Below, piece after piece: positions 12,238-12,552 of a stretch of 64,000 nt of DNA (its first letter is position 1; every line of letters starts with the position of its first letter). The DNA is from Actinomycetota bacterium. GTDB lineage: Bacteria; Actinomycetota; Geothermincolia; Geothermincolales; RBG-13-55-18. Both the position numbers and the translations under genes were made by a program. The stretch covers positions 184,367-248,366 of the forward strand of contig JASEFK010000001.1 in assembly GCA_030019255.1 (NCBI GenBank). Direction: 5' to 3'. The notes beneath the pieces are model-generated. The model was not told the origin of the DNA. It made no database searches and was given only the letters and a program-made list of their open reading frames with translations.

Positions 12238-12272
12238 CCTTTAAATCCAGTCCCGTGAGGCTGGCAAGGGAT
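12238..12272 (+). promoter_or_regulatory. PyrR-binding loop (pyr operon attenuation RNA element)
   Basis: AAUCCAGUCCCGUGAGGCUGGCAAGG matches the conserved PyrR binding-loop consensus (ARUCCNGNGAGGCU...GCAAGG). It lies just upstream of a terminator hairpin and of pyrR. Confidence 0.7.
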
Positions 12273-12287
12273 AGCTGATGATGAAAG

Positions 12288-12326
12288 GCAGCCCTCCTGC
12301 GCCGGCCGCAGGGGGGCTTTTTTGGA
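12288..12326 (+). terminator. Intrinsic terminator (pyr leader attenuator)
   Basis: GC-rich hairpin GCCCTCCTGCGCCGGCCGCAGGGGGGC followed by TTTTTT. Confidence 0.75.
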
Positions 12327-12341
12327 GCCTTGAGCAAGGGG

Positions 12342-12461
12342 ATGGGTTTCCGGGTCAAGGCCAAGGTGATGGAGGAGGACGACATCCGCCGGGCGGTGCG
12401 CCGCATAGCCGGGATGAGCGAGGCCGGGTATGGCCATGGACATCTCGAGATGGCCGCTTGA
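12342..12461 (+). CDS. 39-codon uORF created by duplication of the pyrR 5' end (first 23 codons identical to PyrR)
   Basis: The 69-bp segment at 12342-12410 matches 12484-12552 with 2 mismatches. The ORF reads [23 protein letters not shown] then diverges and stops at 12459-12461. Confidence 0.4.
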   Translation: MGFRVKAKVMEEDDIRRAVRRIAGMSEAGYGHGHLEMAA

Positions 12462-12552
12462 TGCGGGATTAGGAGTAGGGTGAATGGGTTTCCGGATCAA
12501 GGCCAAGGTGATGGAGGAGGACGACATCCGCCGGGCGGTGCGCCGCATCGCC
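12342..12552 (+). repeat. Direct duplication of the pyrR start region (two 69-bp copies, period 142 bp)
   Basis: Copies at 12342-12410 and 12484-12552. Near-identical; the flanking -15 region is also similar. Confidence 0.8.

What the first reader, a model, noticed from the sequence alone, without database searches (positions are those of the whole stretch)
12238..12552. PyrR attenuator followed by a tandem duplication of the pyrR 5' end that creates a 39-codon uORF
The leader has a recognisable PyrR binding loop (AAUCCAGUCCCGUGAGGCUGGCAAGG) and a strong intrinsic terminator. That is the expected attenuation switch. Immediately after it, the first 69 bp of pyrR (ATG plus 22 codons) are present twice, at 12342-12410 and 12484-12552, with 2 mismatches. 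The first copy runs into a short out-of-context tail and a stop (39 codons). The second copy is the real pyrR. This is either a recent segmental duplication scar, an assembly artefact, or a leader peptide co-opted for translational coupling or attenuation.
Basis: seen in the sequence. Interest (0 to 1): 0.5.

Follow-up and report, generated by a model that had tools for sequence, protein, structure and literature searches.

The report
Old, self-homogenising duplicate of pyrR start
Behind an ordinary PyrR transcription attenuator sits a real extra copy of the first 23 codons of pyrR, shared by a whole clade of related uncultured Actinomycetota and kept alike by recombination with the true gene start; the short reading frame it creates is not conserved, so it looks like a persistent evolutionary scar rather than a new regulatory device.

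Summary
RF00515 (PyrR site) matches 12234-12326. An intrinsic terminator lies at 12290-12324. A 69-nt direct repeat with 2 mismatches (12342-12410 and 12484-12552) creates a 39-codon uORF (12342-12461) ahead of pyrR (12484-13026).

- **Not an artefact.** The same uORF protein is on record from a second NCBI contig, and a 99.7%-identical JGI contig carries the same junctions.
- **Not strain-specific.** Five further lineages carry the same architecture: terminator, pyrR-5' copy (R1), spacer (T), pyrR. All six form a 200/200 clade. Three outgroups and 157 more distant pyrR loci lack it.
- **Concerted evolution.** Within a genome R1 and R2 are nearly identical (2/69, 0/67 and 0/64 mismatches). Orthologous copies in different genomes differ at 6-13 sites.
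- **Unequal crossover.** Two lineages hold three or more copies, including hybrid copies of the kind unequal crossover produces.
- **No conserved peptide.** The first copy has lost its ATG in two lineages, has only a 4-codon frame in a third, and has a weak ribosome-binding site throughout. uORF length and stop position vary. In the one closely related pair, R1 and T change about as fast as neutral DNA.

Best reading: one old partial duplication, kept by gene conversion and probably locked in by decay of the first start. It is functionally near neutral. The origin of T is unknown. Interest is low to moderate.

The parts
12202..12230 (+). Inferred pyr promoter: -35-like TTGTTC (12202-12207), 17-nt spacer, TG-A-TATGAT extended -10 (12222-12230). 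The transcript would start near 12237.
   Evidence: Inference only. The block GTTGYC-N17/18-TATGAT sits at the same distance from the binding loop in L083, L166, L174, L178, L173, L175 and L177 (sequences). The consensus scan did not call it, because the -35 matches only 3 of 6.
12234..12326 (+). PyrR attenuator (RF00515). The PyrR binding stem-loop is about 12236-12270, followed by a linker and the terminator.
   Evidence: cmscan gives 55.3 bits against a gathering score of 54, with the full model 1-115. One such site sits at the same place in each of seven relatives, at 51-58.5 bits.
12263..12304 (+). Predicted antiterminator. GGC/GGGA/GCUG, made of the 3' side of the binding loop plus the linker, pairs with CAGC/UCCU/GCC, the 5' arm of the terminator.
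   Evidence: Fold of 12234-12304, which omits the terminator 3' arm. It is a prediction. The pairing excludes both the binding loop and the terminator, as the standard PyrR model requires.
12290..12324 (+). Intrinsic terminator of the attenuator (stem 12290-12318, then TTTTTT).
   Evidence: Terminator scan: 12 pairs, 9 of them G-C, loop of 5. The hairpin sequence is nearly invariant in the relatives (alignment A2).
12327..12361 (+). Local hairpin GCCUUGA/UCAAGGC that encloses the first SD-like AAGGGG and the first AUG.
   Evidence: Fold of 12327-12420 and of 12325-12560. The anti-SD duplex energy for the first start is -6.2 kcal/mol, against -8.3 for the true pyrR start.
12342..12410 (+). R1: extra copy of pyrR nucleotides 1-69 (ATG plus 22 codons).
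   Evidence: 67/69 identical to 12484-12552. Homologous copies sit at the same position after the terminator in L085, L172, L174, L166-171, L178 and, decayed, in L083/L084.
12342..12461 (+). uORF of 39 codons (23 PyrR codons plus 16 unrelated codons). Stop TGA at 12459-12461.
   Evidence: Translation. Called as a 43-aa gene from TTG 12330 in the source record, where NCBI names it a hypothetical protein. Not conserved in relatives.
12411..12483 (+). T: 73-nt spacer of unknown origin. Its 3' end carries the SD of the true pyrR start (GGAG 12472-12475, GGGTGA 12477-12482).
   Evidence: No significant similarity to the rest of pyrR, to the leader upstream, to the rest of the window, to any fetched locus, or to the spacers of other lineages. 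Only the last 20 nt resemble the other lineages' spacers.
12484..12552 (+). R2: the original 69 nt, the true 5' end of pyrR.
12484..13026 (+). pyrR, 180 aa, bifunctional regulator / uracil phosphoribosyltransferase.
   Evidence: Pfam PF00156 at 1.4e-25. NCBI names the identical protein PyrR. The N-terminal residues 1-9 are conserved at protein level in relatives down to 74% identity, so the ATG at 12484 is the real start.
12391..12553 (+). Predicted long-range helix between the 3' ends of R1 and R2. It arises from the quasi-palindrome GCGGUGCGCCGC and encloses T, SD2 and AUG2.
   Evidence: MFE and centroid of 12325-12560, z = -4.0. The same helix is predicted in L172 (z = -2.5) and L174 (z = -0.8). 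It is expected for any duplicated quasi-palindrome, and no covariation evidence supports it.
13033..13055 (+). Terminator-like hairpin plus T-run between pyrR and pyrB (pyrB is 13104-14042).
   Evidence: Conserved in L172, L174, L166 and L178 but absent in L083. No PyrR site was detected in front of it, even at E <= 10.

Best explanation
The leader is a standard PyrR attenuator. PyrR binding to the loop at about 12236-12270 prevents the antiterminator, so the terminator at 12290-12324 forms.

Downstream of it lies the product of one old partial duplication of the pyrR start. This is a 69-nt copy (R1) plus a spacer (T) that now supplies the ribosome-binding site of the true gene. The event happened in the common ancestor of a small clade of uncultured Actinomycetota.

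Since then R1 and the true start (R2) have kept recombining:
- Gene conversion repeatedly overwrites R1 with R2. This explains the 97-100% identity within a genome.
- Unequal crossover changes the copy number, giving three or more copies in two lineages.
- Where conversion lapsed, R1 drifts at about the neutral rate, and in one lineage it has decayed almost beyond recognition.

The initiation signals of the first copy have eroded everywhere. A precise deletion back to one copy would therefore leave pyrR with a poor start or none. That gives a non-adaptive reason for the structure to persist.

In this genome ribosomes can probably still start weakly at AUG 12342, make a 39-aa product of no conserved sequence, and stop 22 nt before pyrR. 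pyrR is translated from its own SD.

**Shown:** the anatomy, the distribution among relatives, the concerted evolution, the hybrid copies, and the lack of uORF conservation.
**Inferred:** single origin, gene conversion as the homogenising process, the lock-in, and near-neutrality.
For: - **Attenuator.**
- **Real sequence.** The uORF protein is on record from two NCBI contigs. The JGI contig L085, 99.7% identical to the window, has the same junctions.
- **Shared architecture.** R1 follows the terminator directly, and the 3' boundary of R falls within one base of the same point (after codon 23, before CAC GAG) in L172, L174, L166-171 and L178. L083/L084 carries a decayed copy whose 3' boundary cannot be placed.
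- **One clade.** The carriers form a clade with 200/200 NJ bootstrap support on 1395 columns of pyrR plus pyrB. L173, L175 and L177 lie outside it and lack the copy. So do L002 and 157 further pyrR loci, whose best upstream match scores 15.5 against 65 here.
- **Concerted evolution.** R1 against R2 within a genome differs at 2/69 (window), 0/67 (L172) and 0/64 (L178). R copies of different genomes differ at 6-13 sites.
- **R1 is old.** L174 R1 and L166 R1 share derived states (GTGGTG, GCGTC) absent from every R2, so R1 predates their split.
- **Unequal crossover.** The middle copy in L085 combines the R2-type base at position 13 with the R1-type base at position 66 and the T junction. L178 has a 200-bp unit repeated twice, with the same kind of hybrid.
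- **No constraint on R1 or T.** Between L174 and L166, R1 differs by 10.6% plus a 3-nt deletion and T by 7.1%. Intergenic DNA differs by 13.5%, synonymous sites by 9-12%, and R2 by 2.9%.
- **Eroded first start.** The ATG reads CGG in L178 and GCG in L172, and L083 has only a 4-codon ORF. The anti-SD duplex energy is -2.2 to -6.4 kcal/mol, against -8.3 to -11.5 for true pyrR starts and -8.3 to -11.0 in outgroups.
- **A wider habit of these genomes.** Gene-end fragments are duplicated elsewhere too: the nusB 3' end in L178 (z = 7.7) and the 3' end of an MBL-fold gene in this window.
Against: - **T looks unrelated between lineages.** The spacers are 73, 83, 56, about 74 and 132 nt, and no similarity is detectable apart from the last 20 nt next to the pyrR start. 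With synonymous differences of only 26-45%, orthologous neutral DNA might be expected to remain faintly alignable. No clean neutral yardstick at this depth was available.
- **The source of T is unidentified.** The original event therefore cannot be reconstructed.
- **Persistence is hard to square with neutrality.** Nearly identical 69-nt repeats 73 nt apart should delete readily, yet all six sampled lineages keep at least two copies. That could mean selection for the structure. The lock-in explanation is weakest for this very genome, where the first ATG and an SD-like AAGGGG survive.
- **Gene conversion is inferred from the pattern, not observed.**
Confidence: 0.6

Rival explanations
1. The R1-T module is kept by selection as an extra regulatory layer on pyrR, after the transcriptional decision has been made. 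Three versions are possible. (a) Translation of the upstream frame delivers or couples ribosomes to pyrR. (b) The R1:R2 long-range helix traps the pyrR start region and is opened by upstream translation. (c) Recombination-driven changes in copy number tune PyrR dosage in the population.
For: - All six sampled clade members retain at least two copies despite repeats that should delete easily.
- Two lineages carry extra copies.
- An in-frame ORF of at least 28 codons starts in R1 in four lineages. In L172 its stop overlaps the pyrR ATG (TGATG), a classic coupling arrangement.
- The leader folds more stably than shuffles in the window (z = -4.0) and in L172 (z = -2.5), with the same R1:R2 helix.
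Against: - No feature of the upstream frame is conserved. The ATG is lost in L172 and L178, L083 has only a 4-codon ORF, the SD is weak in L174 and L166, and the stop lies anywhere from 35 nt before the pyrR ATG to 16 nt past it.
- The R1 peptide changes mostly at non-synonymous sites between L174 and L166. R1 and T evolve at about the neutral rate there.
- The helix follows automatically from duplicating a quasi-palindrome that encodes A-V-R-R. It leaves SD2 and AUG2 in a loop, and its z is only -0.8 in L174.
- Similar gene-end duplicates at unrelated loci point to a mutational habit rather than a pyrR-specific adaptation.
Confidence: 0.17
2. The structure arose several times independently at a hotspot. 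One route is hairpin-promoted template switching at the quasi-palindrome that ends R. Another is that each is the remnant (attL-remnant-attR) of an element that integrates into the 5' end of pyrR and carries a replacement start. Each lineage would then have its own unrelated spacer.
For: - The spacers of the five lineages share no detectable similarity and differ in length from 56 to 132 nt.
- Within-genome repeat identity of 97-100% is what a recent event would give.
- The 3' boundary of R lies at the end of a GGGCG...CGCCC hairpin (sequence, fold).
- A second repeat-spacer-repeat structure sits at a gene 3' end in the same window.
Against: - It needs four or five independent events with the same endpoints to within one base, all inside one clade and none in the outgroups or in 157 other loci.
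- L174 and L166 inherited a diverged R1 from their common ancestor, and L083 carries a strongly decayed one. Old copies therefore exist.
- The last 20 nt of T are more alike across lineages than random offsets: 87 of 200 anchored matches against 60.8 +/- 6.4.
- No integrase or other mobile-element gene adjoins the site. nusB lies upstream and pyrB downstream.
- T has no second copy in the window.
Confidence: 0.18
3. Assembly artefact: the assembler walked twice through a repeat or joined two strain variants.
For: The source is a draft assembly of 65-kb contigs. The JGI contig L085 ends inside the repeat after 2.5 units, which is how an unresolved graph cycle looks.
Against: - The R1-to-T and T-to-R2 junctions are unique sequences that must exist in reads.
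- The uORF protein is on record from a second NCBI contig of 355 kb, and the junctions are seen again in L085.
- The same architecture with lineage-specific sequence appears in assemblies from unrelated projects. These include three NCBI MAGs plus three Logan runs for one species, and a 510-kb JGI contig.
Confidence: 0.02

Closest known systems
Bacillus subtilis-type PyrR attenuation of the pyr operon (Rfam RF00515; Switzer and co-workers; recalled from my own knowledge)
   Same: A PyrR binding stem-loop acts as anti-antiterminator, with a mutually exclusive antiterminator and an intrinsic terminator. It is placed in the leader of an operon that starts with pyrR and continues pyrB-pyrC-carB-pyrK-pyrD.
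   Different: Only one attenuator is detectable here, whereas B. subtilis has three. The host is labelled Actinomycetota. Between the terminator and pyrR lie 142 extra nucleotides holding a copy of the gene's own first 23 codons.
PyrR-dependent translational repression in Mycobacterium smegmatis (Fields and Switzer 2007; recalled from my own knowledge)
   Same: An actinobacterial pyr operon led by pyrR, with a PyrR binding loop in the leader.
   Different: In mycobacteria the loop occludes the ribosome-binding site and there is no terminator. Here a strong terminator follows the loop. The pyrR SD lies about 150 nt downstream of the terminator and is not part of the loop.
Leader-peptide-dependent pyr attenuation in Thermus (Van de Casteele et al. 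1997; recalled from my own knowledge)
   Same: A short ORF lies in the pyr leader ahead of pyrR, together with a PyrR site.
   Different: In Thermus the leader ORF precedes and overlaps the attenuator, so its translation influences termination. Here the ORF begins after the terminator, is a copy of pyrR itself, and is not conserved among relatives.
Concerted evolution of duplicated bacterial sequences by gene conversion, and copy-number change by unequal recombination (for example tufA/tufB and rRNA operons; recalled from my own knowledge)
   Same: Copies within a genome are more alike than orthologues between genomes. Hybrid copies and arrays of three copies are present.
   Different: The unit is only a 69-nt gene fragment 73 nt from its donor. 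One partner is non-functional and decays whenever conversion lapses.
att-site duplications flanking remnants of integrative elements (CIME-like remnants; recalled from my own knowledge)
   Same: A repeat of a gene end flanks unrelated DNA, and the gene is kept intact by the element-proximal copy.
   Different: No integrase or element genes are present, and the spacers are only 56-132 nt. The arrays contain identical spacers, as unequal crossover would give, rather than different elements.

Membership tests
PyrR binding site / attenuator (RF00515) | Covariance-model match at or above the curated gathering score | tested here: met
   55.3 bits against 54 for 12234-12326. Relatives score 51-58.5 bits at the homologous place.
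PyrR binding site / attenuator (RF00515) | Intrinsic terminator directly downstream, with an alternative antiterminator pairing that excludes both the binding loop and the terminator | tested here: met
   Terminator found. The antiterminator is predicted when the terminator 3' arm is withheld. This is prediction only.
PyrR binding site / attenuator (RF00515) | Located in the leader of pyrimidine biosynthesis genes in a genome that encodes PyrR | tested here: met
   pyrR, pyrB, pyrC, carB, pyrK and pyrD follow.
PyrR binding site / attenuator (RF00515) | UMP/UTP-dependent binding of PyrR and pyrimidine-dependent termination | not testable with these tools
   Needs in vitro binding and transcription assays, or Term-seq with and without uracil.
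Regulatory leader peptide / uORF (translational coupling or attenuation) | Start codon and ribosome-binding site conserved among relatives that share the leader | tested here: not met
   The ATG is replaced in L172 (GCG) and L178 (CGG). L083 has only a 4-codon ORF. The SD duplex is -2.2 to -6.4 kcal/mol, against -8.3 to -11.5 for pyrR.
Regulatory leader peptide / uORF (translational coupling or attenuation) | Conserved peptide, or at least conserved length and conserved position of the stop relative to the downstream start or a structure | tested here: not met
   Read from the R1 start position, the frames are 39, 55, 50, 46 and 28 codons, and 4 in L083 from its ATG one base upstream. (L172 has no ATG there; its called ORF is 42 aa from an internal GTG.) The stop ranges from 35 nt upstream of the pyrR ATG to 16 nt past it. 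The tails are unrelated. R1 changes between L174 and L166 are mostly non-synonymous.
Regulatory leader peptide / uORF (translational coupling or attenuation) | Translation of the uORF in vivo and an effect on downstream expression | not testable with these tools
   Needs ribosome profiling or reporter fusions.
Concerted evolution by gene conversion / unequal crossover between direct repeats | Paralogous copies within a genome more similar than orthologous copies between genomes | tested here: met
   0-2 differences within the window, L172 and L178, against 6-13 between genomes.
Concerted evolution by gene conversion / unequal crossover between direct repeats | Recombinant (hybrid) copies and copy-number variants | tested here: met
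   The L085 middle copy is an R2-5'/R1-3' hybrid, with 2.5 units of 142 nt. L178 has a 200-nt unit twice, plus R2.
Concerted evolution by gene conversion / unequal crossover between direct repeats | Single origin of the duplication, so that the copies are true paralogues of one event | tested here: inconclusive
   For: the carriers are monophyletic, the endpoints are shared, and R1 is orthologous in L174 and L166. Against: the spacers cannot be aligned between lineages except for their last 20 nt.
Simple tandem duplication | The whole unit between the repeat starts is present twice, head to tail | tested here: not met
   Only 69 of the 142 nt are repeated. T matches neither pyrR nt 70 onwards nor the leader.
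Remnant of an integrative element (attL-remnant-attR) | Integrase or other element genes, or element-derived sequence, between or beside the repeats | tested here: not met
   The flanks are nusB and pyrB. T is 73 nt and has no match elsewhere in the data held.

The most novel reading that the evidence does not exclude
The copy of the pyrR start is not a scar but a selected post-attenuator control module. In this reading a recombination-prone (R-T)n array works through decoy initiation, upstream translation or the R1:R2 long-range helix. By gaining or losing units, it sets how much PyrR is made from read-through transcripts, giving the population a heritable, reversible rheostat on its own pyrimidine regulator.
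Probability: 0.1. Interest if true: 0.6.

Novelty: new member of a known kind. Interest (0 to 1): 0.3.

Why it matters
As found, this is a clean natural example of a 69-nt gene fragment surviving for a long time next to its parent. Three forces explain it: gene conversion, unequal crossover, and decay of the original start signals. It also has a practical use for annotators. The 39-55-aa "hypothetical proteins" called upstream of pyrR in these MAGs are copies of the PyrR N-terminus, not genes with their own function.

It would matter more if retention proved to be selected. That would be a new way of layering translational or copy-number control on top of a classical attenuator. The PyrR switch itself is ordinary. 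The only mild point of interest is a Bacillus-type terminator attenuator in a lineage labelled Actinomycetota.

Tried and rejected
1. **T as the decayed second half of a 142-nt tandem duplication (pyrR nt 70-142).** Local and semi-global alignments against each genome's own pyrR are at shuffle level in all six lineages. My by-eye matches were not significant.
2. **T as a decayed second copy of the linker, terminator and SD.** Not significant in any lineage. No second PyrR site or other Rfam family appears in T, even at E <= 10.
3. **T copied from elsewhere.** BLAST with short words against the window and all fetched loci finds only T itself.
4. **Spacers homologous between lineages.** Only L174 and L166 align (z = 16). 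All other pairs have z <= 1.9. Anchored comparison shows similarity only in the last 20 nt.
5. **Neutral yardstick from the nusB-promoter spacer.** It cannot be aligned between most lineages. The one alignable pair (L083-L178) turned out to contain a partial nusB 3' duplicate, so it is not neutral either.
6. **Metagenome scan for closer relatives.** Close relatives came instead from the protein search and exact look-ups.
7. **Alternative start at Met10.** Rejected, because residues 1-9 are conserved at protein level.
8. **Literature searches for a pyrR leader duplication or uORF.** They found nothing relevant. Statements about Bacillus, Mycobacterium and Thermus PyrR systems therefore rest on my own knowledge.
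9. **Other limits.** A 39-aa query was too short for the protein search. All 12 exact look-ups are used, so P0012, P0015 and P0016 were not examined. The second NCBI contig (355 kb) is on record but was never read.
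Full report
**1. What is in the window**

The region lies between nusB (11420-12034) and a pyrimidine operon: pyrR 12484-13026, pyrB 13104-14042, pyrC 14044-15390, carB 15401-18325, pyrK 18329-19129 and pyrD 19148-20086.

- Rfam RF00515 (PyrR binding site) matches 12234-12326 at 55.3 bits, against a gathering score of 54.
- The terminator scan finds a 12-pair hairpin at 12290-12318, followed by TTTTTT.
- Folding the leader without the terminator's 3' arm gives an alternative pairing. The 3' side of the binding loop plus the linker pairs with the terminator's 5' arm. 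That is the antiterminator the standard PyrR model requires.
- A 69-nt direct repeat with 2 mismatches lies at 12342-12410 (R1) and 12484-12552 (R2). A 44-nt core occurs exactly twice in 64 kb and never in shuffles.
- R1 opens a 39-codon frame ending at 12461. R2 is the start of pyrR.

The 73 nt between the copies (T, 12411-12483) are not repeated, so this is not a simple tandem duplication.

**2. It is real**

- The window is identical to GCA_054165685.1 contig JBRBPE010000014.
- The 43-aa gene call covering the uORF is on record from two NCBI contigs, one of them 355 kb. Only one of the two was read.
- A JGI metagenome contig (L085), 99.7% identical to the window over 1031 nt, has the same R1-T junction and in fact 2.5 units of 142 nt.

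**3. It is not private to this strain**

A protein search with PyrR gave relatives at 74-98% identity. Their contigs were fetched by exact look-up.

| Lineage | PyrR identity | What follows the terminator |
|---|---|---|
| L172 | 94% | R1 identical to its own R2 over 67 nt, but ATG replaced by GCG. T is 83 nt. |
| L174 | 96% | R1 with 9 differences from its R2. T is 56 nt. |
| L166-171 (three NCBI MAGs, three Logan runs) | 95% | R1 more diverged, with an in-frame 3-nt deletion. |
| L178 (510-kb JGI contig) | not scored | Three R copies with a 200-nt period. The first lacks its ATG. T is 132 nt. |
| L083/L084 | 98% | A 155-nt spacer whose 5' half is a decayed R1. Its similarity to the window's spacer region is exceeded by only 4 of 1000 shuffles. 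|

The 3' edge of R falls within one base of the same point, after codon 23 and before CAC GAG, in every lineage except the decayed L083 copy, where it cannot be placed.

Relatives at 94% (L173), 88% (L177), 87% (L175/176) and 79% (L002) have the terminator followed directly by SD and start. An NJ tree of pyrR (codon 24 onwards) plus pyrB, 1395 columns, places all carriers in one clade with 200/200 support and the three non-carriers tested outside it. None of 157 more distant pyrR loci has an upstream copy of its own 5' end.

**4. The copies evolve in concert and change in number**

- Within a genome, R1 and R2 differ at 2/69 (window), 0/67 (L172) and 0/64 (L178) positions. R copies from different genomes differ at 6-13 positions.
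- L174 R1 and L166 R1 share derived bases found in no R2. R1 therefore existed and had already diverged before those two split.
- In L085 the middle copy combines the R2-type base at position 13 with the R1-type base at position 66 and the T junction. That is the hybrid expected from unequal crossover between R2 and R1. The middle copy of L178 is the same kind of hybrid.
- These patterns fit recurrent recombination between the repeats. Non-crossover events homogenise R1, and crossovers add or remove units.

**5. No sign that the peptide or the spacer is constrained**

- Between L174 and L166 (synonymous difference 9-12%), R1 differs by 10.6% plus a 3-nt deletion and T by 7.1%. Intergenic DNA differs by 13.5% and R2 by 2.9%.
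- Six of the seven R1 substitutions between them change the amino acid. This is a by-eye codon reading of the sequences.
- The first copy's start codon is gone in L172 and L178, and L083 has only a 4-codon ORF.
- Its SD complementarity is -2.2 to -6.4 kcal/mol. The true pyrR start gives -8.3 to -11.5, and outgroup starts give -8.3 to -11.0.
- The upstream frame ends anywhere from 35 nt before the pyrR ATG to 16 nt past it. The tails are unrelated.
- In the window the first AUG and its AAGGGG lie inside a local hairpin.

A co-opted leader peptide is therefore not supported. Weak, incidental translation of the 39-codon frame in this genome remains possible.

**6. RNA structure**

The post-terminator leader folds more stably than shuffles in the window (z = -4.0). 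It forms a long-range helix between the 3' ends of R1 and R2. The same helix is predicted in L172 (z = -2.5) and L174 (z = -0.8).

The helix exists because the codons for A-V-R-R (GCGGUGCGCCGC) form a quasi-palindrome that can pair with a second copy of itself. It leaves SD2 and AUG2 in a loop. I regard it as a by-product of the duplication. There is no covariation evidence either way.

**7. What remains unexplained**

The origin of T is unknown. It matches none of the following:
- pyrR beyond codon 23;
- the leader upstream;
- anything else in the data held;
- the spacers of the other lineages, except for the last 20 nt, which carry the SD (87 of 200 anchored matches against 60.8 +/- 6.4).

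This can be read two ways. It may reflect one origin followed by fast turnover of unconstrained DNA, or several origins at a hotspot. I could not find a valid neutral yardstick at this depth.

Parsimony favours one origin: one clade, shared endpoints, an old R1 in L174/L166 and a decayed R1 in L083. I nevertheless give the recurrent-event rival 0.18.

The second open point is persistence. Near-identical 69-nt repeats 73 nt apart should delete readily, yet every sampled member keeps at least two copies. Erosion of the first start would make the deletion product a poor pyrR allele, which is a non-adaptive lock-in. That argument is weakest in this genome, where the first ATG survives. I therefore keep a selected-function rival at 0.17.

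**8. Comparison with known systems**

The attenuator meets every testable criterion for RF00515 and the Bacillus-type mechanism. Statements about the Bacillus, Mycobacterium and Thermus systems below rest on my own knowledge, because the literature searches found nothing relevant.

- It differs from the mycobacterial PyrR system, which represses translation and has no terminator.
- It differs from the Thermus system, whose leader ORF acts before the terminator.
- The duplicate behaves like other bacterial repeats under gene conversion and unequal crossover.
- It fails the tests for a conserved leader peptide, for a simple tandem duplication, and for an integrative-element remnant.

**9. Verdict**

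This is an ordinary PyrR attenuator followed by a real, clade-wide, self-homogenising partial duplicate of the pyrR start. The uORF is not conserved. The most likely status is a long-lived, near-neutral scar (confidence 0.6). Interest is 0.3. The most novel reading not excluded is a recombination-tunable post-attenuator control module, with probability about 0.1.

Noticed in passing
window 36651-36689 and 36775-36813: A second close direct repeat in the window, 39 nt with 1 mismatch and spacing 124. It duplicates the last 12 codons plus the stop (AGTCIRLDSSLA*) of a metallo-beta-lactamase-fold gene (35517-36689), downstream of that gene, with an unrelated 85-nt spacer. This is the same repeat-spacer-repeat anatomy as at pyrR, but at a gene 3' end. 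These are the only two such repeats in 64 kb.
   Followed up: partly
L178 1894-2165 (also L083 2437-2735): The spacer downstream of nusB contains a partial copy of about 100 nt of that genome's own nusB 3' end. L178 gives z = 7.7 (0 of 500 shuffles reach the score) and L083 is weaker at z = 2.5. No such copy is detectable in the window or in L166. Together with the previous item, this suggests that gene-end fragment duplication is a habit of this clade.
   Followed up: partly
window 44958-45021 (+): Fluoride riboswitch (RF01734), 34.8 bits against a gathering score of 34. The downstream gene was not examined.
   Followed up: no
window 24519-24606 (+): tRNA-Leu (anticodon GAG) with a long variable arm.
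   Followed up: yes
window 13033-13055; L083 3544-3615: A terminator-like hairpin plus T-run between pyrR and pyrB is conserved in the window, L172, L174, L166 and L178, but absent in L083. No PyrR site precedes it, so whether it is regulated is unclear.
   Followed up: partly
window 12208-12224 and the homologous promoter spacers of L083, L166, L174, L178: The spacer between the inferred -35 and -10 of the pyr promoter holds a GC-rich inverted repeat (CCGCC...GGCGG). Its arms are kept in relatives while the centre varies. It could be an operator or merely reflect composition (sequences).
   Followed up: no
L166-L171 751-1255 and L174 1-545: In this sublineage the nusB-pyr promoter spacer is about 500 nt, against 166 nt in the window, and is 86% conserved between L166 and L174. 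One assembly calls an 88-aa ORF there (L166 1014-1280). No family was assigned and its function is unknown.
   Followed up: no
P0128 / P0003 (NCBI MAG contig of 4714 bp): In one MAG of the same species pyrR is annotated as two pieces, 63 aa and 115 aa. This suggests a frameshift, an assembly break or a pseudogene in that assembly.
   Followed up: no
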